From Escherichia phage phiLLS: a DNA stretch of 64,000 bases. Under the pieces are notes generated by a model. That model did no database searches. It worked only from the letters and a program-made list of their open reading frames with translations, and was not told the origin of the DNA. The stretch lies in sequence record NC_047822.1; one strand, written 5' to 3'. The position numbers and the translations under genes are program-made. Below, piece by piece: positions 2 to 54,349 of the stretch (its first letter is position 1; every line of letters starts with the position of its first letter).

Positions 2-1588
2 GCGGGAATCGGGTATCATCTTGAAAGCAGATCAATTGCTGATCCGGTGCGAAATGGGGCATTCCCGCATTCCGGAAAACTGCCATATTATCGACACATT
101 GACCGCTCAGTAAAGGCCAATACTCAGCAAACTCGTGGTGGTTCTGCTACAGTGTCTTATCCATACTTCGACCCTGAAATCATTCAATTGATGCAGGTTA
201 AGCAACAACGTGCTACAGATGAGAATAAAATCGATAAGATGGATTATTCTCTGAGCTTCAACAATCTTTTACTAAAACGTTATCTTAAAAACGAAGATAT
301 TACGCTAATGTCATACTTCTATGCTCCAGAAGTTCATGAAGCGTTTTATAGTGATGACGAGGCTAAATTTGAAGAAATCTACGTGGCAGCGGAGAAACGT
401 GTGGCATCTCTTACAAAGATCGACCACGAAGGAAAAACAGTTCCTGCAGCTCCTAAAGTCTCTGCAAAAGAAATCCTAGATACTTGGCTACGTATCCGAA
501 TGGAAACAGGACGTATGTATGCTCATCACATCGGGGAATCTAATCGTCACGGTAACTTCCTTGATCCAATCCGTATGACAAACCTTTGTGTTGAAATTAC
601 TCAGCCTACGCGCCCGTTCCATCATATCACAGAACTGTATAAGACAAAAGAGCAGCTTGATCAAATGAAGCCGGAGGATATTGGTGAAGTATCTCTGTGT
701 AACTTAGGTGGTGTTGTACTGGGGCGCATGGAATCTCTGGCTGAGTGGGAAAAAACTTGCTACATCCTCCTGAAATTCGTTGATACAATTATTGAAATTC
801 AGGATTATCCGTTCCCAACTATGGAATATACGGCTAAGAAACGTCGTAATGTTGGTATTGGCCTAATGAACGCAGCAGGTGCAATGGCAGCAGAAGGTCT
901 GGCTTATGAAGGTATTGAAGCCCGTAACTGGATTCACCGTGAGGCTGAAAAACTGTCCTACTTCCTGCATAAAGCCTCTGTACGCCTAGCTAAAGAACAG
1001 GGTGCATGTGAGTGGTTTGATCGTACTAAACCATCTAAAGGAATTCTGGTAATCGACACGTACAAGAAAACTGTTGATGAACTGGTATCCGTAGGTCTAG
1101 AAATGGATTGGGAGTCTCTGCGTGCAGATATTCTGAAATACGGTATGCGTAACTCTGTTCTGACTGCTCAGATGCCAGGAGAAAGTTCTTCTGTTCTGTT
1201 AGGTGTTACTAATTCTATTGAACCGCCTCGTAAGATTGTATCTATCAAGGGTAGTGCAGTGAATAAAGTAATTGCAATTGCTCCGGGTGCAACCGATTGG
1301 GAAACGTTAATGAGCTATAAACTGGCTTATGATGTAGATCGTATCGAGTGGATCAAATGGGTAGCAACTATGCAGAAATTCTTCAGTCAGTCTATCAGTA
1401 CGAATATGTACTATGACTACACCAAGTTTGAGAATGAAATCATTCCTGGCCCAGTAGTAGTTCGTGATTTCATGACTGCTGTTAAGTATGGGTGGAAGAC
1501 TTTCTACTACGCAAACTTCAACACCGCAAATGGTGGGGGTGCTGGAGAAGAAGCAGCCGGTTGTGCATCCGGTGGTTGTACTATTTAA
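2..1588 (+). CDS. nrdA: Ribonucleotide reductase class Ia large subunit, C-terminal part (gene starts upstream of window)
   Basis: Frame open from window start; active-site NLCxE motif (TNLCVEI); C-terminal CASGGC redox tail. Confidence 0.8.
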   Translation, partial: AGIGYHLESRSIADPVRNGAFPHSGKLPYYRHIDRSVKANTQQTRGGSATVSYPYFDPEIIQLMQVKQQRATDENKIDKMDYSLSFNNLLLKRYLKNEDITLMSYFYAPEVHEAFYSDDEAKFEEIYVAAEKRVASLTKIDHEGKTVPAAPKVSAKEILDTWLRIRMETGRMYAHHIGESNRHGNFLDPIRMTNLCVEITQPTRPFHHITELYKTKEQLDQMKPEDIGEVSLCNLGGVVLGRMESLAEWEKTCYILLKFVDTIIEIQDYPFPTMEYTAKKRRNVGIGLMNAAGAMAAEGLAYEGIEARNWIHREAEKLSYFLHKASVRLAKEQGACEWFDRTKPSKGILVIDTYKKTVDELVSVGLEMDWESLRADILKYGMRNSVLTAQMPGESSSVLLGVTNSIEPPRKIVSIKGSAVNKVIAIAPGATDWETLMSYKLAYDVDRIEWIKWVATMQKFFSQSISTNMYYDYTKFENEIIPGPVVVRDFMTAVKYGWKTFYYANFNTANGGGAGEEAAGCASGGCTI

Positions 1589-1689: not shown

Positions 1690-2190
1690 TTGATTACGCA
1701 AGAAGAATTAAAACTTTTATTGGATTATGGCCCAATAAAAGGAATCTTTATATGGAAAGAACGAAATCCAGATAAAGGTGGATTTAACAAACAATTCGCA
1801 GGAAAAGTAGCAGGAACATATGATGATCTTGGCTACCTACGAATTAAGATTAACGGTGTGCAATATTTAGCGCATAGATTGGCCTTCCTTTTCGTAAAAG
1901 GATATATGCCAGAATTAGTAGACCATAAAGACCGTAATCCTAGTAATCTAGCTTGGGACAACCTTAGAGAAGCTACCAATTCTCAAAATATAATGAACTC
2001 AGCTGCTAGATCAGATAATAAACTAGGACTAAAGAACATAAGAATCAAGGGAAACTCATATCAGGTACGAATAGGCAAGAATGGCAAATCGTACACCAAG
2101 ACTATGAAATCTCTTGAAGAAGCCATAGAATGGCGGGATACTAAACTAGCTGAACTACACCAAGAATTTGCTAACAATGGAGAAGATTAA
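1690..2190 (+). CDS. HNH homing endonuclease (TTG start)
   Basis: HNH motif VDHKDRNPSNLAWDNLREAT; sits between nrdA and nrdB; AT-rich codon usage. Confidence 0.7.
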   Translation: MITQEELKLLLDYGPIKGIFIWKERNPDKGGFNKQFAGKVAGTYDDLGYLRIKINGVQYLAHRLAFLFVKGYMPELVDHKDRNPSNLAWDNLREATNSQNIMNSAARSDNKLGLKNIRIKGNSYQVRIGKNGKSYTKTMKSLEEAIEWRDTKLAELHQEFANNGED

Positions 2191-3335
2191 TGACGACTTT
2201 ACTTAACCTAGCGTGGGATCATACTAATCCTGAACTTTTCTTAGGTGACTCCCTGGGTATTGCTGACTATGTACGAGTAGCCCACCCTGAGTTAGAACGT
2301 CTAGCACTGCTACAGCGTTCCCAATTCTGGACTGAGACAGAAATTAGTCTAGAGAGCGACAAAAAACAATGGCCTAATCTCCAACGAGAAATTCAGGAAA
2401 TTACACTCCTGAACTTAGCATGGCAGACTCAAACTGATTCCTTTATCAGTCGTGCCCCTGAAGCAGCTATTATGCCGCTTGTAAGTCGTCCAGAATTGGA
2501 AGGTATGCTCAAACAGTGGAGCTATTTTGAAGACCTGCATAGTCGTGCTTATAGCAATATTATTCGTAATGTTCTGACTGATCCAGCAGAATTTATTGAT
2601 TCTGTAACCAAAAACCAAGAAGCATTCGCACGAATCGCTGATTCTGTTGAACTATTCGATGAACTGTACCAGTTAGGTCAGTATTTCATCGCAGTACGCG
2701 ATCATCGTGGCGACAATACATATCCAGAAACTGAGTTCCCTGAAGTTAAACGTGAAACTCAGGCTAAACTATTAGACGCTTACTTTGCTATCTATGGTCT
2801 GGAAGCAATGCAGTTTTACGCATCCTTTGCATGTACCTTTGCACTAGCAGAGAACGATATTCTGCAAGGTATTGCTAAAAATCTGCAATTAATCGCTAAA
2901 GATGAGGCTCTGCATACTCAGATGTCCAAAGCAATCATCCAGATTATGTTCCAGCAGTTTGACAAAGACCTGGTGGATGAAGCCGTGGCTAAAGCACCAG
3001 CACAGCTCCTGAAAACTCTGAAAACTGAAATTGAATGGGGTCATTTCATTTTCAAAGGTCGTAGTCTGATTGGCTTGAATGCAGAACTTCTAGAAGAATA
3101 TTTGTACTTTGTGGGGCGTAATGCATTTATGCACATCGGTGTAGAATGGCCTAGTCATTTACCAGTAATCACCAAAAATCCTATTCCGTGGATCATGAAC
3201 TGGTTGGATACTACTTCTCTACAGCCTGCTCCACAAGAAATCCAGATTGGTGCAGCCTACCGTGTAGGTCAGGTAACTGAGACCTCTACTGATACTCTGA
3301 AAGATCTGGGCAATGAATTTGGAGATTTCTTATGA
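2190..3335 (+). CDS. nrdB: Ribonucleotide reductase small subunit
   Basis: 381 aa directly downstream of nrdA; translation consistent with the di-iron RNR beta family. Confidence 0.7.
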   Translation: MTTLLNLAWDHTNPELFLGDSLGIADYVRVAHPELERLALLQRSQFWTETEISLESDKKQWPNLQREIQEITLLNLAWQTQTDSFISRAPEAAIMPLVSRPELEGMLKQWSYFEDLHSRAYSNIIRNVLTDPAEFIDSVTKNQEAFARIADSVELFDELYQLGQYFIAVRDHRGDNTYPETEFPEVKRETQAKLLDAYFAIYGLEAMQFYASFACTFALAENDILQGIAKNLQLIAKDEALHTQMSKAIIQIMFQQFDKDLVDEAVAKAPAQLLKTLKTEIEWGHFIFKGRSLIGLNAELLEEYLYFVGRNAFMHIGVEWPSHLPVITKNPIPWIMNWLDTTSLQPAPQEIQIGAAYRVGQVTETSTDTLKDLGNEFGDFL

Positions 3336-11560: not shown

Positions 11561-11632
11561 GCCGTCCTAGTATAATTGGTATTATCAAGCCGTAACCGGT
11601 GGAAGATGTAGGTTCGAATCCTACGGTCGGTA
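11561..11632 (+). tRNA. tRNA-like element (canonical T-arm and acceptor pairing; anticodon arm not resolvable by hand)
   Basis: T-arm gtagg-TTCGAAT-cctac; 6/7 acceptor pairing; no clean anticodon stem. Confidence 0.3.
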
Positions 11633-15204: not shown

Positions 15205-15723
15205 ATGAATGTTGATGAGCTAACACAGCACCTCTTATCTAGAGGATTTGATACAGATAAATATCATTGCTGGTTAAGTCCGGAAGGATGGCTAACAGTC
15301 CCGTTGTATGACTTCTCTGGGATGTTGAGGGGCTATCAAACTTATAATCCTTCTGCTCCAAAAGGTCATGGTAAGTGCCCCTTTGAAGCTAAATACTTTA
15401 CTTATTCTACTACCCAGTGTGTATGGGGACTAGAAACTCTCAATGGAGATGAAAAAGTAGTATTGATTGCTGAATCTGTATTTAAGGCAGTTGCGTTACA
15501 TAATGCTGGTTATCCAGCCCTAGCAATGTTGGGTTCTTCTCCAGGAAAAGCGTTATTAAAGCAACTGAAATTACTACCTTTTAAATTGGTAGCTGTCGGA
15601 GATAATGATCCTGCGGGTGAAAAATTTGCTAGAAAATTAAACGGCTTTGTTTCTCCCGTAGATGTGGATGAGATGTCTACCGAAAACTTGAAAAATTTTC
15701 TTGCTATGAAGCTAAATTTCTAA
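15205..15723 (+). CDS. Hypothetical protein, possible Toprim-domain protein
   Basis: ATG with AGAGGAAC RBS; IAES...GDNDPAGE resembles Toprim acidic motifs. Confidence 0.4.
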   Translation: MNVDELTQHLLSRGFDTDKYHCWLSPEGWLTVPLYDFSGMLRGYQTYNPSAPKGHGKCPFEAKYFTYSTTQCVWGLETLNGDEKVVLIAESVFKAVALHNAGYPALAMLGSSPGKALLKQLKLLPFKLVAVGDNDPAGEKFARKLNGFVSPVDVDEMSTENLKNFLAMKLNF

Positions 15724-15729
15724 TATAAT
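15701..15729 (+). promoter_or_regulatory. T5-type promoter upstream of tRNA genes
   Basis: -35 TTGCTA, 17-bp spacer, -10 TATAAT overlapping the 3' end of the preceding CDS. Confidence 0.5.
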
Positions 15730-15744
15730 ATATCTTATAAATTC

Positions 15745-15833
15745 GGAAGAATAGCATAACGGTATTGCAGCAGATTGCTAATCTGTCGGTTTGAAATATA
15801 GCCTTGTGGGTTCGATTCCCGCTTCTTCCGCCA
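15745..15833 (+). tRNA. tRNA-Ser (anticodon GCT), class II, CCA encoded
   Basis: Acceptor ggaagaa/ttcttcc, anticodon loop TTGCTAA, long variable arm, T-arm gtggg-TTCGATT-cccgc. Confidence 0.65.
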
Positions 15834-15839
15834 AATTCT

Positions 15840-15917
15840 GGTTCTCAAGCTCATATGGTATGAGCACCCGGCTCATAACCGGAAGGTACGTAGGTTCGAA
15901 TCCTCGGGGAGCCACCA
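15840..15917 (+). tRNA. tRNA with anticodon CAT (Met or Ile2)
   Basis: D-stem gctc/gagc, anticodon loop CTCATAA, T-loop TTCGAAT, acceptor with two G-U pairs, CCA encoded. Confidence 0.55.
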
Positions 15918-15936
15918 AATTAAATAGAGGTCACAA

Positions 15937-16125
15937 ATGGATCTATATATAGTTTATGTTGTGTTTATCCAAGATAGAGAATACCCGGATGAATATAAAA
16001 AAGGGTATAGGTTGGCCAGAGCTACCTCTGAAGCCCAAGCTATGGATAAAGTGGCAGATTATATGATTACGGTAGAAAACATACACTATATCGACTACCT
16101 TGAAGCCTCAAAAGTAATTGACTAA
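15937..16125 (+). CDS. Hypothetical small protein
   Basis: 62-aa ORF with GAGG RBS between tRNA genes. Confidence 0.45.
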   Translation: MDLYIVYVVFIQDREYPDEYKKGYRLARATSEAQAMDKVADYMITVENIHYIDYLEASKVID

Positions 16126-16132
16126 ACTACAC

Positions 16133-16209
16133 GGGGGTGTAATCGAATTGGCATAGGTACTGGACTTAAAATTCAGGTTTTGTGGGTTCGAATCCCACCA
16201 CCCCTACCA
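16133..16209 (+). tRNA. tRNA with anticodon TAA (Leu-type anticodon) but short variable loop
   Basis: Acceptor gggggtg/cacccct, anticodon stem ctgga/ttcag with loop CTTAAAA, T-arm gtggg-TTCGAAT-cccac, CCA encoded. Confidence 0.5.
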
Positions 16210-16224
16210 AACTAAGGAAATAAG

Positions 16225-16392
16225 ATGTATAGACATCCACCTCCGCCAACACGTCGTTCTAGAGAAGTTATCCTCATGGAATTGACTAAAAACTTCAAGG
16301 CAACTCTTGAAGATAGAGATCTAGGTACAGATGAAGACGTTGATTTCATTTGTAAACTATTAAAAATGAAGCTGGAGAAACATCATGGCTAA
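16225..16392 (+). CDS. Hypothetical small protein (55 aa)
   Basis: ATG with AGGAAA RBS; below ORF-track length cutoff. Confidence 0.35.
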   Translation: MYRHPPPPTRRSREVILMELTKNFKATLEDRDLGTDEDVDFICKLLKMKLEKHHG

Positions 16393-16591
16393 CCGTGAAA
16401 TTACTATGCAACGAATCATGACTAAAGGCATGATAGCCGAGGCAGGTATTGAACAAGAAGTAAAAGGCTATTACGAACAGATTAAGACTATTATAGACTC
16501 TGCTAAAAACACCGGAGAAAAAGAGCATGGTGCGGCAATTATGGCTATAACTCTTATTAGTCTAGACTTGGCCGAAGAATCTGGAGTTTAG
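16385..16591 (+). CDS. Hypothetical small protein
   Basis: 68-aa ORF; start overlaps the preceding small ORF. Confidence 0.4.
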   Translation: MANREITMQRIMTKGMIAEAGIEQEVKGYYEQIKTIIDSAKNTGEKEHGAAIMAITLISLDLAEESGV

Positions 16592-16621
16592 CTCCTCCAA
16601 ACAGAATTTTTAAAAATGTAC

Positions 16622-16651
16622 TTGCCTTTTGCTTTAAATTTCTGATATAAT
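16622..16651 (+). promoter_or_regulatory. T5-type early promoter
   Basis: -35 TTGCCT, 18-bp spacer, -10 TATAAT. Confidence 0.5.
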
Positions 16652-16681
16652 AGTTATATAAATTGATGGAGGAGTTAACGA

Positions 16682-16957
16682 ATGCAAAATCGTGTTGTAG
16701 CAACTGGTATTGAAAGTGCAATCTGTAAATCCTGGGAAGGCTGGGAAGGTGAGATTGAATGGCTTTATTTCTATGATGTAGAACTTCTACCGGAAGTTAA
16801 AGCTAAATGTATTGAAGCTGGCATGGCTCCAGATGCAAAAGCTGATATTGATATTTTAATGTCTGAACTTAAAGGTCGTGTAGTTACCGTTAGTAATGAG
16901 GGCGAAGAAGTTTTCGAACTTCCGTTCTCCTTAACTGTCACTCCTAAGTTCGACTAA
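16682..16957 (+). CDS. Hypothetical protein
   Basis: 91-aa ORF with GGAGG RBS after promoter. Confidence 0.5.
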   Translation: MQNRVVATGIESAICKSWEGWEGEIEWLYFYDVELLPEVKAKCIEAGMAPDAKADIDILMSELKGRVVTVSNEGEEVFELPFSLTVTPKFD

Positions 16958-16993
16958 CTAATACAGCACTGAGCAAGTTCTTTAAAATTTGAC

Positions 16994-17022
16994 TTGCTCA
17001 GTGCTATAAAACTTGATATAAT
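16994..17022 (+). promoter_or_regulatory. Promoter embedded in a terminator hairpin, upstream of tRNA genes
   Basis: -35 TTGCTC, 17-bp spacer, -10 TATAAT; the -35 lies in the 3' arm of hairpin agcactgagcaagt...acttgctcagtgct. Confidence 0.5.
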
Positions 17023-17156
17023 AGTTATCTAATTTGGAAAGTTCTTTTTAAGGTAGTTCCTACTTTAGTAGAGTAAATTTTTGGCAGATGGCCCCCACCA
17101 TTTTACCGATAACTCCTAGTCAGTGCGGCAACACTGGCTACCTTAAAGAGAATTTT

Positions 17157-17244
17157 GGGCGTTTATTCCGTAAGTGGTAGCGGAGGGGATTGTAAATCCC
17201 TGGTCATTGCGACTCGAGTGGTTCGACTCCATTAACGCCCACCA
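17157..17244 (+). tRNA. tRNA-Tyr (anticodon GTA), class II, CCA encoded
   Basis: Perfect acceptor gggcgtt/aacgccc, anticodon loop TTGTAAA, long variable arm, T-arm agtgg-TTCGACT-ccatt. Confidence 0.6.
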
Positions 17245-17251
17245 ATTTAAT

Positions 17252-17326
17252 GCACCTATCGTCTAGCGGTTAGGACACCACTCTTTCACAGTGGGAACAC
17301 GAGTTCGACCCTCGTTGGGTGTGCCA
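17252..17326 (+). tRNA. tRNA-Glu (anticodon TTC), CCA encoded
   Basis: D-arm GTCTAGCGGTTAGGAC as in bacterial tRNA-Glu, anticodon stem ccact/agtgg with loop CTTTCAC, T-arm acgag-TTCGACC-ctcgt. Confidence 0.7.
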
Positions 17327-17335
17327 ATTAATAAT

Positions 17336-17406
17336 TGGGGTACGCATAGGTTGCAAATGGGCCTCCAAAACCCATGAAAAGGTTTCGAATACCTTTACCC
17401 CTGCCA
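17336..17406 (+). tRNA. tRNA-Trp (anticodon CCA), compact, CCA encoded
   Basis: Anticodon loop CTCCAAA, T-arm aaggt-TTCGAAT-acctt, acceptor tggggta/tacccct with 1:72 mismatch. Confidence 0.5.
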
Positions 17407-17412
17407 AAATTT

Positions 17413-17487
17413 GCACCTTTAGCTGAGATGGATTAGCGCTTGCCTGAAGAGCTTGAGAGGTTCGTTCGATTCGAACAGGGTGCACCA
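17413..17487 (+). tRNA. tRNA, probable Phe (anticodon GAA), CCA encoded
   Basis: Acceptor gcacctt/agggtgc, D-arm gctg-agatggat-tagc, loop CTGAAGA, T-arm gttcg-TTCGATT-cgaac; anticodon stem weak. Confidence 0.5.
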
Positions 17488-17504
17488 ATTTGAAGGAGCT
17501 GCTG

Positions 17505-17777
17505 ATGCATACTGAAAACTTCTTTATTTACTGCGCGGATAAGTCGCTGAAACGTAGAATTAACAAAGTCTATCATTATCGTGTTAGTCAACAGCCTTAT
17601 GTATATGCTTTTGACGGTGATCACATTCCACTAGAACAATTATCTTGTGATTACATGATATTGAAGAACTTTGACGAGACAAAGATCTCAAGCGTTCATA
17701 ATCGACAGAATCCATTAACGTGGAAATATAAGAAGAAAAAGAAAGGCATCAAATTCTTAAAAAATGTAGTTGCTTAG
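17505..17777 (+). CDS. Hypothetical protein
   Basis: ATG with GAAGGAG RBS right after the tRNA; the ORF-track TTG start at 17490 is less likely. Confidence 0.45.
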   Translation: MHTENFFIYCADKSLKRRINKVYHYRVSQQPYVYAFDGDHIPLEQLSCDYMILKNFDETKISSVHNRQNPLTWKYKKKKKGIKFLKNVVA

Positions 17778-17797
17778 TTTCCAAAAGTTCTGTATAA
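17769..17797 (+). promoter_or_regulatory. T5-type early promoter
   Basis: -35 TTGCTT, 17-bp spacer, -10 TATAAT. Confidence 0.55.
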
Positions 17798-17845
17798 TAA
17801 TTACATAAATTGAACTGGAGAAGCAACATGACAGAATAAGATAAA

Positions 17846-17921
17846 CCGACCGTTGGCTGAATGGCTTAGGCGAAGGATTGCAAATCCTTTTTATGTGAGT
17901 TCAAATCTCATGCGGTCGTCC
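17846..17921 (+). tRNA. tRNA-Cys (anticodon GCA), CCA encoded
   Basis: Acceptor cgaccgt/gcggtcg, anticodon stem aagga/tcctt with loop TTGCAAA, T-arm gtgag-TTCAAAT-ctcat. Confidence 0.7.
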
Positions 17922-17943
17922 AAATTACTAAAGGAAAGAAGTA

Positions 17944-18462
17944 GTGCATACAAAAGTTTTTGATAGTTTGGTAAAGAAAGGCATTGTTACTAATAAGCCT
18001 TTCTGTATAACCGCAGAACTAATCCAAAGATTTATGGAAGAATATATAAATCTTTCAGGAACTAATGGTAATACCAAAAAGAATACAAATACTATGTATT
18101 CGAGAAAACTTGCCGCACTTTCCTTTATAAAGTTTAAGCAGGAAAATAAACTTCCTATTTCTGAAGGTTTTGTATACTGTATTAGTAATCCTGCATGGAA
18201 AAATCAGTATAAAATAGGTATGAGTCAAAATCCAAAAGAGAGATTAGCTCAATATCAGACCTATTCCCCCTATAGGGATTATAAATTAGAGCATTGGTCG
18301 TTTTGGTTTGACAAACGAAAAGGTGAAAAACTAATTCACCAGTATTTCAAAGATTTAAAAGAACATGAGTGGTTTAGTATAAATTCTAGGGATCTTAGTA
18401 AATATCTAGAACGTATTAACTCTAGTTCTGACTTATATGGTTCCTTAGCTCTAATTGGTTAG
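17944..18462 (+). CDS. T5orf172 / GIY-YIG-like domain protein (GTG start)
   Basis: GFVYCISNPAWKNQYKIGMSQNPKERL resembles the GIY-YIG-like T5orf172 domain; AT-rich; 3' end overlaps the next tRNA. Confidence 0.55.
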   Translation: MHTKVFDSLVKKGIVTNKPFCITAELIQRFMEEYINLSGTNGNTKKNTNTMYSRKLAALSFIKFKQENKLPISEGFVYCISNPAWKNQYKIGMSQNPKERLAQYQTYSPYRDYKLEHWSFWFDKRKGEKLIHQYFKDLKEHEWFSINSRDLSKYLERINSSSDLYGSLALIG

Positions 18463-18516
18463 AGCGGCATCTTGTTAAGTTGAGGGTTGCTGGTTCGAAT
18501 CCAGCAGGAACCGCCA
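18439..18516 (+). tRNA. tRNA, probable Asn (anticodon GTT), CCA encoded
   Basis: Perfect acceptor ggttcct/aggaacc, D-stem gctc/gagc, loop TTGTTAA, T-arm gctgg-TTCGAAT-ccagc; anticodon stem weak. Confidence 0.5.
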
Positions 18517-18618
18517 AATTCTGTGTAGAGTTAAGTAAACCGGTAGCCAACCAGCTATCATTGCTGACATCGAATTCAGCCACAGATACCATTTTCATTA
18601 ATAACTGAGGAAATAAGC

Positions 18619-18804
18619 ATGTCCAAGAATGTAATTGCGCAGCTAGAAGTTCATCGTGATAGCACTATCAACAATATTGAAGTTGAAAAGAAATACATCG
18701 AAGAACTTAAACACGATATACTAATAAGTCTCAATCGTCTTAATGTACGAAAAGAGTTTCTTAAAGAACTTAATGCAGCTATTGAAAAACTCAAAGCTGA
18801 GTAA
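18619..18804 (+). CDS. Hypothetical small coiled-coil protein
   Basis: 61-aa ORF with GAGGAAA RBS. Confidence 0.45.
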   Translation: MSKNVIAQLEVHRDSTINNIEVEKKYIEELKHDILISLNRLNVRKEFLKELNAAIEKLKAE

Positions 18805-18813
18805 ATGAATTAT

Positions 18814-18890
18814 GCGACCGGGGCTGGCTTGGTAATGGTACTCCCCTGTCACGGGAGGGAATGTGGGTTCAAATCCCATCGGTCGCGCCA
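18814..18890 (+). tRNA. tRNA-Asp (anticodon GTC), CCA encoded
   Basis: Perfect acceptor gcgaccg/cggtcgc, anticodon stem ctccc/gggag with loop CTGTCAC, T-arm gtggg-TTCAAAT-cccat. Confidence 0.7.
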
Positions 18891-18915
18891 AATTAATTTA
18901 GTATGAGAATATACT

Positions 18916-19263
18916 ATGCGTAATGCCAAAGAAGAGCTGTTACTTGCCTTAAAAAATACTAATTCTGAAGTTAAATGTATTAAAATAGAATTCGGGTATT
19001 ATGGGGATAAAAAAGTTTGGGTATTGCCTTTAGGTTACACAGAAGAAGATATTGAGGATTTTCTTAATAACCTAGACTTTAAATATGACTCTGGGTACGG
19101 TGGACAATTACTTTATGGTAATGTATGGTTTGCCGATGGAACTTGGCTAGAACGTGGAGAATATGATGGTGCTGAGTGGTGGGAATACAAAGCCACACCA
19201 GCAATTCCAGAGGAATGCCGAACAATTAATGGTGAAGTAGATAATACTTTACGGTTAAACTAA
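18916..19263 (+). CDS. Hypothetical protein
   Basis: 115-aa ORF between tRNA genes. Confidence 0.45.
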   Translation: MRNAKEELLLALKNTNSEVKCIKIEFGYYGDKKVWVLPLGYTEEDIEDFLNNLDFKYDSGYGGQLLYGNVWFADGTWLERGEYDGAEWWEYKATPAIPEECRTINGEVDNTLRLN

Positions 19264-19385
19264 TAAAATTTCAGTGCAGAACACGGAGCTAGCAATTCGG
19301 AAGTGCTGACTCATGATAAGCTGCCTATGTACTTGCGAAGCGGTCGTGTCCAAGACTCGGACTCTTGCACTGAAAACAATCAAAC

Positions 19386-19506
19386 ATTCTAGCGTGGTTG
19401 ATGGGGAAACCAGCTTGGCTAGGGCAGAAGCTCGTTCGATTCGAGTGAAAGAATGGTTCTCGTAAGTCCGCACAAGTGATAACAGGTTCGAGTCCTGTCT
19501 AGAATG
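19386..19506 (+). ncRNA. Atypical tRNA-like element with two T-arm-like hairpins enclosed by a perfect 7-bp acceptor-like stem
   Basis: attctag...ctagaat closing stem; D-like arm tggtt-gatgggga-aacca; T-arms gctcg-TTCGATT-cgagt and acagg-TTCGAGT-cctgt; 121 nt. Confidence 0.3.
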
Positions 19507-19692
19507 ACATATTCTGGAGATTCTATGGATTATGAAGAGTTAGATAAATTAGCTGATACATTATCAGAACTATCTGATAATGTAGTAATAAAAGATTCTA
19601 GGATAGACAGTTTTATTGCTGATTATCGTAATGGTATTATCTCTAGGCAAGAACTAGTAGATAAAACTTATCAATATTTAAAGGGAAAGTAA
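19504..19692 (+). CDS. Hypothetical small acidic protein
   Basis: 62-aa ORF. Confidence 0.4.
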   Translation: MTYSGDSMDYEELDKLADTLSELSDNVVIKDSRIDSFIADYRNGIISRQELVDKTYQYLKGK

Positions 19693-19710
19693 ACGAAAGT
19701 TTACTTATTA
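19689..19710 (+). terminator. Terminator-like hairpin
   Basis: gtaaacgaaagtttac followed by TTATTA. Confidence 0.4.
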
Positions 19711-19837
19711 TGTAGGTTCCGATAGATCGGCGGGTCTATTCTGGCATTTAAGAGAAGTCTCGCAAACTTCTTTGTCAGCCGTGGGGTTGGTAGCCTCCAG
19801 GTGGCCTACACAATAAGTAAATTTATTAAAAATTCAT

Positions 19838-19866
19838 TTGCTATTCTGCTTTATTATCTGTATAAT
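19838..19866 (+). promoter_or_regulatory. T5-type early promoter
   Basis: -35 TTGCTA, 17-bp spacer, -10 TATAAT. Confidence 0.55.
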
Positions 19867-19898
19867 ATATTTTATAAAGTGAAGAGAAGGAAAGCAAA

Positions 19899-20057
19899 AT
19901 GAAACACAAGATAGCTCAAGTTTTTATGGCATTATGGTGTATGCCAATAGCTATAACAGCATTTAATCTAGATACTTTTACTATAGAAGAAAAATGTATC
20001 GGATTAGTTAGCGGTTTTAGTATGCTGGGCTTATCTTTGCTGTGGTTAAAGAAATAA
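19899..20057 (+). CDS. Hypothetical small membrane protein (52 aa)
   Basis: ATG with AGAAGGAAAG RBS after promoter; hydrophobic; below ORF-track cutoff. Confidence 0.4.
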   Translation: MKHKIAQVFMALWCMPIAITAFNLDTFTIEEKCIGLVSGFSMLGLSLLWLKK

Positions 20058-20061
20058 TATT

Positions 20062-20139
20062 CTCCGTGTAGCTCAGTTTGGCCAGAGCGTTTCGTTTGGG
20101 GCGATAGGGTCGGGGGTTCAAATCCTCCCACGGAGACCA
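20062..20139 (+). tRNA. tRNA-Pro (anticodon TGG), CCA encoded
   Basis: Perfect acceptor ctccgtg/cacggag, D-stem gctc/gagc, loop TTTGGGG, T-arm ggggg-TTCAAAT-cctcc. Confidence 0.65.
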
Positions 20140-20145
20140 AACAAT

Positions 20146-20223
20146 TGCGGGTTAGATCTCTGGTAGAGATCGCTAGTCTCATAAGCTAGAAAGAGGTAGG
20201 TTCGATTCCTGCACCCGCTTCCA
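20146..20223 (+). tRNA. tRNA with anticodon CAT (Met or Ile2), CCA encoded
   Basis: D-stem gatc/gatc, anticodon stem ctagt/gctag with loop CTCATAA, T-arm gtagg-TTCGATT-cctgc, 1:72 mismatch. Confidence 0.55.
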
Positions 20224-20243
20224 TTTTAATAGAGGATTTCGAA

Positions 20244-20411
20244 ATGAAAGTATTTCGATTAGTAGTAAGTGACAAACGTTTAGGTAATAATACCTCAAGA
20301 TCCTTACTTGCACATTATGGAAAAGATGAAAAAGAAGTAATGGCGGAGTTTGGGATTAATCATTCTTACTTAAAAGTCCATTCTATTAAAGAAGTATACA
20401 ATGGTTACTAA
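20244..20411 (+). CDS. Hypothetical small protein (55 aa)
   Basis: ATG with AGAGGA RBS; below ORF-track cutoff. Confidence 0.35.
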   Translation: MKVFRLVVSDKRLGNNTSRSLLAHYGKDEKEVMAEFGINHSYLKVHSIKEVYNGY

Positions 20412-20412
20412 T

Positions 20413-20491
20413 AGATCGCTAGCTCAATAGGTTTAGTAGCATCCGACTTTTAATCGGAAGGTTCTGGGTTCGAGTCCCAGGCGATCTACCA
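20413..20491 (+). tRNA. tRNA-Lys (anticodon TTT), CCA encoded
   Basis: Perfect acceptor agatcgc/gcgatct, anticodon stem tccga/tcgga with loop CTTTTAA, T-arm ctggg-TTCGAGT-cccag. Confidence 0.7.
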
Positions 20492-20509
20492 ATTTCAAGA
20501 AAAACGCAG

Positions 20510-20538
20510 TTGCTTGATGCTTAATTTCTTGTTATAAT
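20510..20538 (+). promoter_or_regulatory. T5-type promoter driving a 1.3-kb ORF-free RNA-gene region
   Basis: -35 TTGCTT, 17-bp spacer, -10 TATAAT. Confidence 0.55.
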
Positions 20539-20871
20539 ATTTATATAAATTGATGCGAAAATAGCTGCCTAGATACCAGGTGTATGACGTCTACACTAGC
20601 AGAGCTACCGAAAAAGAGATCCTCAGGATAAACGTCGTAGCAAAATTAGTCTGGTATCCATCAATTTAGTTCACTAAGGTATTAGCTCGACCTAGGACTG
20701 GCTGCCAAAAAGCACGATCCCTACGATTCGGGAGAAGTTCTAGATTAGTCCACTAGATTCAGCGGCAACTGAATAGTGTATTGGGTTTGCGAGATGACGC
20801 AGTTCCTTCCGCTCGAAGCGAAGGTGCTGTAGTTACGCCGAGCTAATAGCCTTAGTAAACTAAAGAATTTG

Positions 20872-20947
20872 GGGGAATGGGTCTGCATGGAGTGGACACC
20901 TCGCTTGCACCGAGGACATCAGAACGGTTCGATTCCGTTATTCTCCA
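20872..20947 (+). tRNA. tRNA-Ala (anticodon TGC)
   Basis: Acceptor ggggaat/attctcc, D-stem gtct/ggac, perfect anticodon stem cctcg/cgagg with loop CTTGCAC, T-arm aacgg-TTCGATT-ccgtt. Confidence 0.6.
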
Positions 20948-20955
20948 CAAAATAC

Positions 20956-21033
20956 GCGTGATTGATGGAATTGGCATACATACCGTCCTTAGAAGTCGGG
21001 TTTTGAGGGTTCGAATCCCTTGTCACGCACCAA
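20956..21033 (+). tRNA. tRNA with anticodon TAG (Leu-type anticodon) but short variable loop, CCA encoded
   Basis: Acceptor gcgtgat/gtcacgc, loop CTTAGAA, 5-nt variable loop, T-arm gaggg-TTCGAAT-ccctt. Confidence 0.5.
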
Positions 21034-21144
21034 ATTTGATGGTCAGAGTAAATTAAACCTACTATCTCGGTTGAGCTGTTTTAATGGGTTCGAATCCCAG
21101 CGGGGCGTAACTGCCTGGTGTGATAGAGGCATCATCTTATTATT

Positions 21145-21235
21145 GGAAGAGCAAATCGAATTGGCGACGAAAACCGCTTGGAAAGTGGCTGACTGGTAAA
21201 ACGGCTTGAGAGTTCAAATCTCTCCTCTTCCGCCA
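21145..21235 (+). tRNA. tRNA-Ser (anticodon GGA), class II, CCA encoded
   Basis: Perfect acceptor ggaagag/ctcttcc, loop TTGGAAA, long variable arm, T-arm gagag-TTCAAAT-ctctc. Confidence 0.55.
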
Positions 21236-21247
21236 AACAATTTATAT

Positions 21248-21342
21248 GGTAGGTCAATCCAACGGCTGGCGCTGGACTCCGACTTGAAATCGGTTGATCG
21301 TAGTGATACGGTGTAAGGGTTCGATCCCCTTACCTACCTCCA
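21248..21342 (+). tRNA. tRNA-Ser (anticodon TGA), class II, CCA encoded
   Basis: Perfect acceptor ggtaggt/acctacc, anticodon stem ccga/tcgg with loop CTTGAAA, long variable arm, T-arm aaggg-TTCGATC-ccctt. Confidence 0.55.
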
Positions 21343-21707
21343 AATCTTGGAATATGCCGGAATTGGTAGACGGGACTGCCGAATAGGTTTACTAGGAACA
21401 TCCACTCCTAGAAATATACCTTAAAAGCGGTTGAGTTAAATGGTCTAACTCATGAAGGTTCAAATCCTTCTATTCCTTGATACATCAATGGCTCAAAGTG
21501 TAACGGTGCTATTTGATGCACTTGGAAAGACTTTCCCGACATGCGTTCGGGGGTAAGCTTCTGAGGCTAGAATAGAAGAGTTTCTGGGAGCCGCCACAAT
21601 CGAAAATTCGTACTCGTCTTGAGCTGCGTGCAATAGGAGATAACTTGATTAGTATTCTAGAACATGCTAATTGAGGATGGTTTCGCTAACCCTGCGAGTT
21701 TTCAATT

Positions 21708-52591: not shown

Positions 52592-54349
52592 ATGGGTTTT
52601 TTCGCTGGAAAATATAGCGATGGTAAGACCGTACTATCTTTAAATACTGAATCTGGTGGTGACATTAATCGTCACTATAGTCCAAATAATAATAGTATTT
52701 TTCATAGTGATATGCCATTTGTCCTAGTTGATGGTACTTATGAGGCAGGATTAGGAGATGCCGGGAATGGGTTTTTTGTCTGTCAGATGCCCTCTGACAT
52801 AATAAATATTAAATCCAACGACCCGGGTAGAGTTATACTAACTGCTATTGAGATTAATGGTACTCATAGGGCTTTTCTTAATGGTACTCAAAGTAAGGTT
52901 GGCCAAACTATAGTTGCTACTCAAGCAGATCCCTTTAGATCTTTTGCTAGTGTTTCTCAAACCAGTGGATTTGCATTTGGTAATAGTCTAGCATCTGGCA
53001 CTTATAATTATAATCCCTCTCTAGGGCATGAAGAATCTATCTCTAGAAATGGTACTGGAGGTACTACGTTACATAGTACCTATCACGGTATAGTTAGGCC
53101 CGGTGCGGGAGCTCCTGTAGGTATTACTGTTGCACAAGCTTTTGAGCAATTGGGTTTCCCTACTAATAGTAGCACAGTACCTGTAGATGGGAATAACCCG
53201 TACTATTGGGATCCCGGATGGATGTCGCCTCTAGGAGCAGCGCATAGAGGGCATGATTGGTTTTATGTCTGCAATTCTAATATACGTGGATATGGTGGAG
53301 TTAGACAAGGGCTCCCAGGTAATGTAAATACTATGTACCACGACGGTGGGAACAGGTTTGTTTGTAGGGGATCTACTACTAATCTAGCTAACCAGTCGGG
53401 TGACTCTACAATACTACAGGATTGGTATAATATAACTCCTACTAAGGTTATTTGGTATGTTCTTAATTTAAGGTACTCGAATGGTGGAATGAGTATTTCA
53501 GGTAATCCCTTTACTGGTTCTGATATTCTTATATCTCCTTCTAATTTCATAATTAAAGGGGTAAGTCTCCCTAATACCGGGTATAAATTTATTAATCAGA
53601 ATGCTTTTGGTAACTTAGGTTATCGTCCTGATATGGAGTATATAGGGAATAACGCAGCGTATACTGGAGCCTTCGGAGATACCACTGCAAGGTGTGAACT
53701 TGTAGGATCTAGTAATGGAGGGTTGTGGTCTCCTGTAGATTATGGAGGGGCTAAATCCCAAATTAGCATTTACAAATTTGGAGCAGGTAAACAGTGGTAT
53801 GTAAACTCTAACGATAATACTATTGGTAATGAGCATGGGGTTGTTTGGGGACCCTCAGCAGTTCCACTGCGACTTTTTGGTGGAAATGTAGGTAGTTCCT
53901 ATATGGGAGATGATATTACTCCCCACTATCCAGGAACGGGTGATAGATACGTTGGTTTATCAACTATTGGGCTAGGTATACCAGGCGGAAATGCTACAGT
54001 AATTCTTACTACTGAAGTTATATCAGGTAATCTTAATTGTGCGGGTGTTCCAGCTAATACATGGAATAATGGTGTGTTTCAAGTGCAAGGAAGAAGAGCG
54101 TATAGCTATAGCGGCGGGGATGCAATATTCCACCAGATTTTAACGCTACCTGTGGGCTATCTAGTACCTTTTCATACTACATCTGCTTTTAGATACACGC
54201 CTAACAATGCTCTTAGTAGAAACAGTTTTATATATACCGTTAAAAATCTAGGAAATGGAAATGTAGAGTTAGGAGTAGTTATGCATGTGAGTTTGGGTAG
54301 CGCAGTTTTCCTACCTAGATTAAGAGTAACAGTTCAACGCCTTACCTAA
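52592..54349 (+). CDS. Putative receptor-binding tail protein (pb5/Oad-like position)
   Basis: 585 aa, Gly/Asn/Ser/Thr-rich; strong AGGAGA RBS; divergent from the lipoprotein gene. Confidence 0.5.

What the first reader, a model, noticed from the sequence alone, without database searches (positions are those of the whole stretch)
16133..21033. Two tRNAs carry Leu-type anticodons but fold as class I (short variable loop)
The tRNAs at 16133-16209 (loop CTTAAAA, anticodon TAA) and 20956-21033 (loop CTTAGAA, anticodon TAG) have good acceptor and T-arms but only a 5-nt variable loop. Bacterial tRNA-Leu is normally class II with a long variable arm. Either these are unusual Leu tRNAs or my anticodon-arm assignment is wrong.
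Basis: inference. Interest (0 to 1): 0.45.

Follow-up and report, generated by a model that had tools for sequence, protein, structure and literature searches.

The report
Phage leucine tRNAs lacking the long arm
This T5-like phage carries two real leucine tRNAs that lack the long extra arm found in almost all cellular leucine tRNAs, and the same arm-less form turns out to be common in phages and mobile tRNA gene arrays although the literature I could search does not describe it.

Summary
ARAGORN and the Rfam tRNA model both call tRNA-Leu(UAA) at 16133-16209 and tRNA-Leu(UAG) at 20956-21032, each 77 nt with a 5-nt variable loop (GUUUU). Covariation across 13 homologues from at least six phage lineages supports the cloverleaf. 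All five anticodon-stem pairs covary, so the anticodon assignment is right.

Both tRNAs keep the E. coli leucine identity set: A73, U8-A14, A15-U48, a 3-bp D stem with an 11-nt D loop like host tRNA-Leu, and U54/A58. Their nearest D-arm relatives are long-arm (class II) Leu tRNAs. UUA and CUA make up 46% of the phage's Leu codons and align to leucine in distant homologues, so nothing suggests recoding.

The trait is not a local oddity. The UAA gene is 95-100% identical in 324 phage records. Arm-less Leu tRNAs are also present in FelixO1-like, rV5-like, Vibrio, Aeromonas and Streptomyces phages. In a pattern-selected IMG/VR sample they were 30 of 169 Leu tRNAs, and they sit in dense tRNA arrays in bacterial assemblies. 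Ser and Tyr tRNAs keep their arms.

The best reading is functional arm-less tRNA-Leu charged by host LeuRS. Charging is untested, and one paper reports that E. coli LeuRS charges only long-arm tRNA-Leu.

The parts
16133..16209 (+). tRNA-Leu(UAA), 77 nt, class I, CCA encoded. Acceptor stem 16133-16139/16199-16205. 3-bp D stem with 11-nt D loop GAAUUGGCAUA (16145-16155). Anticodon loop 16165-16171 (UAA at 16167-16169). Variable loop GUUUU 16177-16181. T loop UUCGAAU. Discriminator A at 16206.
   Evidence: ARAGORN; Rfam 57.4 bits with alignment; sequence; covariation; 95-100% identical in 324 phage records, mostly annotated tRNA-Leu.
20956..21032 (+). tRNA-Leu(UAG), 77 nt, class I, CCA encoded. 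Same D loop GAAUUGGCAUA (20968-20978). Anticodon loop 20988-20994 (UAG at 20990-20992; A37, not the G37 of host leuW). One U-U mismatch in the anticodon stem. Variable loop GUUUU 21000-21004. Discriminator A at 21029.
   Evidence: ARAGORN; Rfam 47.5 bits; sequence; 95-100% identical in 160 phage records.
20872..20948 (+). tRNA-Ala(UGC) with G3:U70, the upstream partner of Leu(UAG) in a two-gene Ala-Leu cassette.
   Evidence: ARAGORN; Rfam 36.3 bits. The cassette, spacer included, aligns closely with a Seunavirus (Vequintavirinae) locus, while T5 has a different Ala plus an 85-nt Leu at the same slot.
15701..15729 (+). Promoter-like site TTGCTA-17-TATAAT upstream of Ser(GCU)-tRNA(CAU)-Leu(UAA). 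It is a possible start of the transcript that carries Leu(UAA).
   Evidence: Consensus scan; the total number of sites found is no higher than in shuffles, so this is weak. T5 annotates promoter P15b at the equivalent place upstream of tRNA-Ser3.
15745..15914 (+). tRNA-Ser(GCU), 89 nt, class II (15745-15833), and tRNA(CAU) (15840-15914), the neighbours upstream of Leu(UAA). The Ser tRNA keeps its long arm.
   Evidence: ARAGORN; Rfam 57.9 and 40.3 bits; sequence.

Best explanation
Both genes encode functional leucine tRNAs that descend from ordinary long-arm (class II) tRNA-Leu and have lost the variable arm, leaving exactly 5 nt. The phage has no LeuRS of its own (my recollection for T5-like phages, not checked here), so they would be charged by the host enzyme. 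In E. coli that enzyme reads the discriminator A73 and the D-loop/T-loop core (U8-A14, A15-U48, G18G19 placement, A20a, U54-A58), not the anticodon or the arm. The tRNAs then decode UUA/UUG and CUA/CUG (CUN), codons the AT-rich phage uses far more than its host does. Shown here: the structure, its conservation, retention of the identity elements, descent from class II Leu, and the Leu meaning of the codons. Inferred: charging by host LeuRS, expression, and any selective benefit of losing the arm. The benefit could be none, protection from mis-recognition by SerRS or TyrRS in any host, or escape from a tRNA-targeting nuclease.
For: Structure and anticodons.
Identity elements named in review PMC9976931 are all present: A73; U8/A14; A15 with U48; a 3-bp D stem plus the 11-nt loop GAAUUGGCAUA against host GAAUCGGUAGA and AAAUUGGUAGA; T loop UUCGAAU.
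The nearest D-arm neighbours among 57 window, T5, E. coli and 201phi2-1 tRNAs are class II Leu tRNAs: 201phi2-1, T5's 85-nt gene and E. coli leuZ.
Aligned with T5's Leu(UAG) at the same slot, the gap is 8 nt and lies exactly in the variable region.
Across 140 unique natural class I Leu tRNAs: A73 in 138, U48 in 137, A15-U48 in 136, and a variable loop of exactly 5 nt in 142 of 143 before deduplication. That is the minimum length Fan et al. found compatible with good charging.
Loss of the arm is specific to Leu: Ser and Tyr keep theirs in the window and in 60 of 63 cases in viral loci. This fits synthetases that do or do not read the arm.
Codon use: UUA 25.5% and CUA 20.6% of Leu codons.
Codon meaning: homologue residues are 58% Leu at UUA columns (16) and 57% at CUA columns (28), the same as CUG at 54%.
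Purifying selection: the gene is 100% identical across about 290 genomes.
Against: No aminoacylation or expression data exist for these tRNAs.
Fan et al. 2019 (PMC6614811) report that E. coli LeuRS 'only charges type II tRNALeu' and could not charge the natural type I tRNA-Leu(CAA) of S. coelicolor. They also note a contact between the LeuRS C-terminal domain and arm nucleotides 47f-47i in the E. coli complex. That Streptomyces tRNA has C48 rather than U48, so the failure may not carry over to the phage tRNAs, but this is my inference.
Leu(UAG) has a U-U mismatch in its anticodon stem and A37 instead of the host's G37.
Some GenBank records label homologues 'tRNA-OTHER' or 'tRNA-Pseudo-TAG'.
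The most highly expressed late gene, the major capsid, avoids UUA and CUA, so a simple supply-for-late-genes account is incomplete.
The codon-meaning test cannot separate the phage tRNAs from host tRNAs that read the same codons.
Confidence: 0.78

Rival explanations
1. Arm loss is a counter-defence adaptation. The tRNAs are functional tRNA-Leu, and the arm was shed so that they escape a host or competitor tRNA nuclease that recognises class II tRNAs through the arm. They would then replace host tRNA-Leu that gets cleaved during infection. This extends the best explanation and does not exclude it.
For: T5-family tRNAs are known to rescue infection from tRNA-cleaving defence systems (PARIS, retron Eco7, OLD), and phage tRNAs carry escape mutations in the anticodon loop (papers listed; text). 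Human SLFN11, an antiviral nuclease, prefers type II tRNAs, especially tRNA-Leu(UAA), contacts the variable arm, and cleaves an arm-deleted tRNA-Leu less well. Class I Leu tRNAs are concentrated in phages and mobile tRNA arrays, which have been proposed as anti-defence elements. Class I CUN readers also mostly have A37 instead of G37: 58 of 78, against 18 of 69 in class II.
Against: I found no bacterial nuclease reported to target tRNA-Leu or to read the variable arm; the defence papers I checked mention other isoacceptors. Ser and Tyr tRNAs in the same phages keep their arms. T5 itself does well with an armed 85-nt Leu.
Confidence: 0.15
2. They are decaying or non-functional tRNA relics (pseudogenes), as some annotation pipelines imply.
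For: A Felixounavirus record labels the homologue 'tRNA-Pseudo-TAG', and other records use 'tRNA-OTHER'. There is a U-U mismatch in the Leu(UAG) anticodon stem. T5-like tRNA regions do hold tRNA-like remnants.
Against: The sequence is 100% identical in about 290 genomes. Compensatory changes maintain every helix across distant phage families. Invariant tertiary and identity positions are kept in 140 unique sequences. The variable loop is strictly 5 nt. Rfam scores are well above threshold.
Confidence: 0.04
3. They carry Leu anticodons but are charged with another amino acid, recoding UUA/CUA or causing deliberate mistranslation.
For: Lack of the arm is what makes tRNAscan-type isotype models disagree with the anticodon (general point). 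Natural tRNAs with Leu anticodons and Ser identity exist (allo-tRNAs). UAA shares A35, A36 and A73 with tRNA-Phe (my knowledge).
Against: There is no G3:U70, so not Ala, and no long arm, so not Ser. All other E. coli synthetases need their own anticodon bases (and established identity rules). UUA and CUA columns are as Leu-rich as CUG columns in NrdA, NrdB and TerL, with no second amino acid enriched. The D arm is Leu-type.
Confidence: 0.03
4. They are tRNA-shaped RNAs with a non-translational role, such as decoys for host enzymes, processing signals in the polycistronic tRNA transcript, or recombination or homing targets.
For: T5 encodes several stable tRNA-like RNAs of unknown function in this region. 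Homing endonuclease genes are interspersed and overlap some homologues in annotation.
Against: Conservation of the anticodon (always a Leu anticodon in 140 of 140), A73, encoded CCA and the full LeuRS identity set is not needed for those roles. Several contigs carry a full set of class I isoacceptors (UAA, UAG, CAA, CAG), as expected for decoding.
Confidence: 0.03

Closest known systems
E. coli class II tRNA-Leu (leuZ UAA, leuW UAG)
   Same: Same anticodons. A73, U8-A14 and A15-U48. A 3-bp D stem with an 11-nt D loop GAAUYGGYAxA. G18G19 placement and the T-loop U54/A58.
   Different: The host tRNAs are 85-87 nt with a 13-15 nt stem-loop variable arm; the phage tRNAs have 5 nt. One D-loop base is G in the host and U in the phage. 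Host leuW has G37 and phage Leu(UAG) has A37.
Phage T5 tRNA-Leu(UAG), T5t10, 85 nt
   Same: Same genomic slot directly after tRNA-Ala(UGC). Same anticodon loop start CUUAGA. Leu-type D arm. A73. The GenBank note says a CUA-anticodon derivative acts as an amber suppressor, so the T5 form works in E. coli translation.
   Different: It has a 13-nt variable region and a different sequence throughout. The whole Ala-Leu cassette differs, so this is not a simple deletion. T5 has no Leu(UAA) gene.
Streptomyces coelicolor type I tRNA-Leu(CAA) (Fan et al. 2019, PMC6614811)
   Same: A natural bacterial-world tRNA-Leu with a 5-nt variable loop that coexists with class II Leu tRNAs and one LeuRS. 5 nt is the minimal functional loop length.
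   Different: It has C48 (loop ACAGC), and A73 is not a determinant for its LeuRS. It needs features of the Streptomyces LeuRS leucine-specific domain, and E. coli LeuRS did not charge it. The phage tRNAs keep U48 and A73 and must work with enterobacterial LeuRS. The paper does not mention phages.
Animal mitochondrial tRNA-Leu(UUR)
   Same: Leu tRNA without the long arm. A73 and A14 are important.
   Different: It has a floppy, mismatch-rich structure and a dedicated mitochondrial LeuRS, and contacts extend to the anticodon stem. The phage tRNAs have a canonical, G+C-balanced cloverleaf with standard D/T loops.
[quoted passage not shown]
   Same: Shows that arm-less tRNA-Leu can be leucylated by E. 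coli LeuRS if A73 and the D/T tertiary pairs are intact. The phage tRNAs have exactly this architecture.
   Different: These are laboratory constructs. The primary papers were not available to me, so I cannot compare efficiencies.

Membership tests
tRNA (Rfam RF00005) | Cloverleaf matching the covariance model above the gathering score | tested here: met
   57.4 and 47.5 bits against 29.
Class I (type I) tRNA | Variable region of 4-5 nt with no stem | tested here: met
   GUUUU in both. 5 nt in all 13 aligned homologues.
Bacterial tRNA-Leu (E. coli LeuRS identity set) | Discriminator A73 | tested here: met
   A at 16206 and 21029. Invariant in alignment A1. 138 of 140 in the wider set.
Bacterial tRNA-Leu (E. 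coli LeuRS identity set) | U8-A14 and the A15-U48 tertiary pairs | tested here: met
   U8, A14, A15 and U48 are present in both and invariant in the alignment with host Leu tRNAs. A15/U48 in 136 of 140. This is the nucleotides only; the tertiary pairing itself is inferred.
Bacterial tRNA-Leu (E. coli LeuRS identity set) | G18G19 placed in an 11-nt D loop on a 3-bp D stem, with A20a; G18:U55, G19:C56, U54:A58 | tested here: met
   D loop GAAUUGGCAUA against host GAAUCGGUAGA; T loop UUCGAAU. The 3-bp D stem covaries.
Bacterial tRNA-Leu (E. coli LeuRS identity set) | Long variable arm (class II architecture) | tested here: not met
   5 nt only. According to the review the arm is characteristic of E. 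coli tRNA-Leu but is not an identity determinant. Fan et al. nevertheless state that EcLeuRS charges only type II.
Bacterial tRNA-Leu (E. coli LeuRS identity set) | Leu anticodon, with the cognate codons read as Leu | tested here: met
   UAA and UAG. UUA and CUA columns are 58% and 57% Leu in homologues.
Bacterial tRNA-Leu (E. coli LeuRS identity set) | Leucylation by LeuRS | not testable with these tools
   Needs an in vitro charging assay or charging-sensitive tRNA sequencing.
Type I tRNA-Leu of the S. coelicolor kind | 5-nt variable loop that includes nucleotide 48 | tested here: met
Type I tRNA-Leu of the S. coelicolor kind | A cognate LeuRS adapted to type I substrates (leucine-specific domain), with A73 dispensable | not testable with these tools
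   The host enzyme would be enterobacterial LeuRS. A73 is conserved in 138 of 140 phage-type sequences, which points to the E. coli mode of recognition rather than the Streptomyces mode.
tRNA-Ser / allo-tRNA with Leu anticodon | Long variable arm and G73 | tested here: not met
   No arm, and A73.
tRNA-Ala identity | G3:U70 | tested here: not met
   G3-C70 in both.

The most novel reading that the evidence does not exclude
Arm-less tRNA-Leu is a hallmark of phage and mobile-element tRNA sets. It is selected because dropping the arm makes the tRNA invisible to an as yet unidentified bacterial immune nuclease that picks out class II tRNAs by their variable arm, as human SLFN11 does, while bacterial LeuRS still charges it. 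The correlated changes (D-loop G to U, G37 to A37) would be part of the same escape and compensation package.
Probability: 0.15. Interest if true: 0.8.

Novelty: new member of a known kind. Interest (0 to 1): 0.5.

Why it matters
Reviews state that tRNA-Leu carries a long variable arm everywhere except animal mitochondria. The one bacterial exception studied, in S. coelicolor, was presented as rare, and E. coli LeuRS was said to charge only the long-arm type. Here arm-less Leu tRNAs are routine in well-used coliphages (T5-like, FelixO1-like, rV5-like, including BASEL collection phages) and in tRNA arrays of many phyla.

If E. coli LeuRS charges them, that claim about its specificity needs revising, and these are ready-made natural substrates for dissecting LeuRS recognition. 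If it does not, hundreds of phages conserve a tRNA whose function is unknown.

Practically, annotation pipelines label these genes inconsistently as tRNA-Leu, tRNA-OTHER or pseudogene. The Leu-specific loss of the arm, the strict 5-nt loop and the correlated D-loop and position-37 changes give concrete hypotheses for work on phage counter-defence and for tRNA engineering.

Tried and rejected
- **MFE folding:** single-sequence folding gave non-cloverleaf structures with z about -1.3. Uninformative, so I used the covariance model and covariation instead.
- **BLAST against E. coli genomes:** BLASTN of the 77-nt tRNA against 5,426 genomes gave only T-arm matches to plasmid 'tRNA-OTHER' genes, too insensitive to find the host relative. 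I fetched leuZ and leuW by coordinates instead.
- **Literature:** nine searches found no paper describing class I tRNA-Leu in phages. The non-canonical tRNA review, the tRNAscan-SE 2.0 paper, the phage-tRNA escape paper and the retron-Eco7 paper do not mention it.
- **Defence papers:** neither the DARNA nor the OLD paper mentions tRNA-Leu.
- **Papers not held:** two primary papers were unavailable: the 1970 detection of T5 tRNAs, and the minimal tRNA-Leu study.
- **Chance hits in the bacterial-genome scan:** 38 of 120 rows were non-tRNA matches and were excluded.
- **Frequency estimates:** The genome scan used a class-I-only spacer, so it gives no ratio.
- **Simple codon compensation:** I considered it as the whole story and set it aside. 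The major capsid gene avoids UUA and CUA, and codon supply does not explain why the arm is missing.


Full report
**What the window is.** The window comes from a T5-like phage (Tequintavirus, Demerecviridae). Positions 15500-21500 match Salmonella phage vB_Si_CECAV_FGS017, Escherichia phage Baret and many others at 96-97%. It holds the large tRNA cluster typical of this group: 21 ARAGORN calls and 21 Rfam tRNA hits. The two lists mostly overlap.

**Checking the observation.** ARAGORN calls tRNA-Leu(taa) at 16133-16209 and tRNA-Leu(tag) at 20956-21032. Rfam RF00005 scores them at 57.4 and 47.5 bits against a gathering score of 29. Single-sequence thermodynamic folding did not give the cloverleaf, which is normal for tRNAs.

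The stronger test is covariation. I aligned the two genes with 11 homologues found by BLAST in other phages. These were another T5-like phage (SpoonbillGilly) and members of Epseptimavirus, Mooglevirus, Felixounavirus, Seunavirus, Avunavirus, two Vibrio Demerecviridae genera, Aeromonas Lahexavirus and a Streptomyces phage. The proposed class I cloverleaf pairs 97.5% of cells, against 40-51% when the 3' partners are slid. 15 of 20 pairs have changes on both sides, including all five anticodon-stem pairs and all three D-stem pairs.

**What the tRNAs are.** By hand, both tRNAs parse into:
- a 7-bp acceptor stem;
- U8 and a purine at position 9;
- a 3-bp D stem;
- an 11-nt D loop, GAAUUGGCAUA;
- a 5-bp anticodon stem;
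- a 7-nt anticodon loop;
- a 5-nt variable loop ending in U48;
- a 5-bp T stem with loop UUCGAAU;
- discriminator A73 and an encoded CCA.

A 3-bp D stem with an 11-nt loop is the architecture of bacterial class II tRNA-Leu. Aligned with E. coli leuZ and leuW, T5's Leu and a class II Leu(UAA) from phage 201phi2-1, the invariant positions include U8, A14, A15, G18, G19, the A after G19-N, U48 and A73. The only large difference is a gap in the variable region. Among 57 tRNAs from the window, T5, E. coli and 201phi2-1, the D arms closest to the two window genes, apart from each other, are class II Leu tRNAs: 201phi2-1 for both, and also T5's 85-nt gene and leuZ for the UAG tRNA.

The review PMC9976931 lists the E. 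coli Leu identity set as A73, A15-U48, G18G19, A20a, and G18:U55, G19:C56 and U54:A58. It states that neither the anticodon nor the long arm is required, and that truncated tRNA-Leu lacking the arm stays active if A73 and the D/T interactions are kept. The phage tRNAs have every one of these nucleotides. They look like class II Leu tRNAs with the arm removed, not like another class I tRNA whose anticodon has mutated.

**Relation to phage T5.** T5 (NC_005859) has a single Leu tRNA, tRNAL1(UAG), 85 nt with a 13-nt variable region. It lies directly after tRNA-Ala(UGC), the same slot as the window's Leu(UAG). Its GenBank note says a CUA-anticodon derivative is an amber suppressor. The window's Ala and Leu both differ in sequence from T5's. 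They closely match an Ala-Leu pair, spacer included, in the unrelated myovirus Cronobacter phage EspYZU14 (Seunavirus). So whole tRNA cassettes are exchanged between phage families, and armed and arm-less Leu(UAG) alternate at one locus among T5 relatives. In the phage collection:
- the class I UAA gene is at least 95% identical in 324 records;
- the class I UAG gene in 160 records;
- the T5-type 85-nt gene in 52 records.

Annotations vary among tRNA-Leu, no annotation, 'tRNA-OTHER' and 'tRNA-Pseudo-TAG'.

**How widespread it is.** I scanned IMG/VR with one pattern: a Leu-type D loop, 9 nt, a YAR anticodon loop, a spacer allowing any variable-region length, then the T loop. ARAGORN on these found 169 Leu tRNAs with a bimodal length distribution. 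30 (18%) are 75-79 nt, in 19 loci, with anticodons UAG, CAA, UAA, CAG and AAG. In the same loci 43 of 44 Ser and 17 of 19 Tyr tRNAs are at least 83 nt.

38 rows were chance non-tRNA matches. The rest gave 117 short Leu tRNAs in 75 loci, mostly inside dense arrays of 10-37 tRNAs per 8 kb on MAG contigs from many phyla, again with long-armed Ser and Tyr.

Pooling both scans gave 140 unique class I and 155 unique class II Leu tRNAs:
- Before deduplication, the variable region is 5 nt in 142 genes, 6-8 nt in 3, and 9-28 nt in 157.
- Class I keeps A73 (138 of 140), U8 (133), U48 (137), A15/U48 (136) and the 17-18 nt D arm.
- The D-loop base in ...GGYA[N]A is U in class I (100 U, 29 G) and G in class II (28 U, 115 G). 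The Fisher odds ratio is 14, p = 1.5e-22; within IMG/VR alone it is 10.9, p = 8e-7. Neither is corrected for phylogeny.
- CUN-reading class I tRNAs mostly have A37 (58 of 78), against 18 of 69 in class II.
- With the arm removed, the nearest neighbour of a class I sequence from another locus is class I in 114 of 140 cases and class II in 26. That suggests a few spreading lineages plus some independent losses.

**What they do.** In 40 ORFs of at least 150 aa (10,689 codons), UUA is 25.5% and CUA 20.6% of Leu codons, in a window of 39% G+C. From established codon tables, not measured here, these are minor Leu codons in E. coli, with CUA the rarest. That fits supplementation of host decoding.

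To test for recoding, I aligned NrdA, NrdB and the large terminase with 52, 53 and 85 homologues of about 60% identity or less. I then asked what those homologues have where this phage uses each codon. UUA columns (16) average 58% Leu and CUA columns (28) average 57% Leu. CUG gives 54% and CUU 54%. Control codons give their own amino acids. So these codons mean Leu. The limit of this test is that host tRNAs read the same codons. What it excludes is a phage tRNA that efficiently inserts something else.

**The main uncertainty.** The only paper in the searchable library on a type I tRNA-Leu outside mitochondria is Fan et al. 2019. They show that S. coelicolor LeuRS charges both its type I tRNA-Leu(CAA) and its type II tRNAs. 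They state that E. coli LeuRS only charges type II and could not charge the Streptomyces type I tRNA, and they note a contact between the E. coli LeuRS C-terminal domain and arm nucleotides.

That conflicts with coliphages conserving type I Leu tRNAs. A plausible resolution, which is my inference, is that the Streptomyces tRNA has C48 (loop ACAGC) and so lacks the A15-U48 determinant of the E. coli system, which the phage tRNAs keep. Consistent with host-specific tuning, the one Streptomyces-phage class I Leu I fetched has G15 and C48. Fan et al. also found 5 nt, including nucleotide 48, to be the shortest loop compatible with good charging. That matches the strict 5-nt loop in nature.

**Why the arm is lost.** This remains open. 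Three options are consistent with the data.
- *Neutral loss.* LeuRS, unlike SerRS, does not read the arm.
- *Portability.* An arm-less Leu tRNA cannot be mistaken for tRNA-Ser or tRNA-Tyr in any host, which would suit cassettes that move between phages.
- *Escape from a nuclease that recognises class II tRNAs by the arm.* The precedent is human SLFN11, an antiviral nuclease that prefers type II tRNAs, especially tRNA-Leu(UAA), contacts the arm, and cleaves an arm-deleted tRNA-Leu less well. T5-family tRNAs are already known to rescue infection from tRNA-cleaving defences. I found no bacterial nuclease reported to target tRNA-Leu, so this stays a minority hypothesis.

**Verdict.** The genes themselves are already annotated in hundreds of phage genomes, and type I tRNA-Leu is a known kind (mitochondria, S. 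coelicolor). What appears unreported in the literature I could search is that the arm-less form is common and conserved in phages and mobile tRNA arrays, including phages of E. coli, whose LeuRS has been said not to accept such substrates. I rate it a new member of a known kind, with moderate interest and a direct biochemical test.

Noticed in passing
window 15840-15914: Rfam calls a tRNA here (40.3 bits) with anticodon loop CUCAUAA (CAU). It occupies the slot of T5's tRNA-Ile2(CAU). ARAGORN missed it.
   Followed up: partly
window 21248-21338: A roughly 91-nt class II tRNA with anticodon loop CUUGAAA, i.e. Ser(UGA). Its best Rfam match is the tRNA-Sec model at 38.3 bits, below threshold, and ARAGORN did not call it. 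T5 has Ser(UGA) and Ser(GGA) downstream of its Leu.
   Followed up: partly
window 21085-21099, 21410-21478 and 11561-11632: tRNA-like remnants or weak tRNAs: a T-arm-like GGGUUCGAAUCCC stretch right after Leu(UAG); a 25.2-bit tRNA-like hit at 21410-21478; and a 35.5-bit Rfam tRNA at 11561-11632 that ARAGORN did not call. T5 annotates several 'tRNA-like stable RNAs' in this region.
   Followed up: no
window 59072-60448 (major capsid, Pfam Phage_capsid): Extreme Leu codon bias towards the host-preferred codon: CUG in 40 of 49 Leu codons, CUA 0, UUA 1. Neighbouring genes use UUA and CUA heavily; for example 52592-54349 has CUA 13, UUA 9 and CUG 1. The most highly expressed late gene does not rely on the codons that the phage Leu tRNAs read.
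   Followed up: partly
pooled loci L016-L255 (IMG/VR and GTDB scans): The D-loop base in ...GGYA[N]A tracks the class: U in arm-less Leu tRNAs (100 U, 29 G) and G in armed ones (28 U, 115 G). Arm-less CUN readers also mostly have A37 rather than G37 (58 of 78, against 18 of 69). These may be compensatory or co-selected changes. Neither association is corrected for phylogeny.
   Followed up: partly
window 20865-21040 compared with L003 56-231 (Cronobacter phage EspYZU14, Seunavirus): The Ala(UGC)-Leu(UAG) cassette, including its spacer, is shared between this siphovirus and an unrelated Vequintavirinae myovirus, while T5 has a different cassette at the same slot. This indicates horizontal exchange of tRNA cassettes between phage families.
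   Followed up: partly
L006 147-221 (Felixounavirus AYO145A); NC_048856.1 (Phage NBSal003): Public records annotate the arm-less Leu gene inconsistently, as 'tRNA-OTHER', 'tRNA-Pseudo-TAG' with a pseudogene flag, as tRNA-Leu, or not at all.
   Followed up: yes
L012 129-203 (Streptomyces phage Teutsch): Its 75-nt class I tRNA-Leu(UAG) has G15 and C48 (variable loop GUGUC). The S. coelicolor type I tRNA-Leu(CAA) studied by Fan et al. also has C48. That raises the question of whether the chromosomal gene is phage- or mobile-element-derived.
   Followed up: no
L138, L165, L195, L204, L211, L212, L221 and others (tRNA arrays in MAG contigs): The opposite oddity. ARAGORN makes 12 calls of tRNAs with anticodon UAU (Ile) that are 91-95 nt long; in the seven I printed, the extra length lies in the variable region (for example ...GGCGCCAGAUAAGCGGCAGGUC...) and the discriminator is A73. 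The other 9 Ile(UAU) calls in the same data are 72-77 nt.
   Followed up: no
window 47-1588 and 2190-3335: Class Ia ribonucleotide reductase large subunit (the reading frame runs off the window start) and small subunit, both highly conserved. I used them only for the codon-meaning test.
   Followed up: partly
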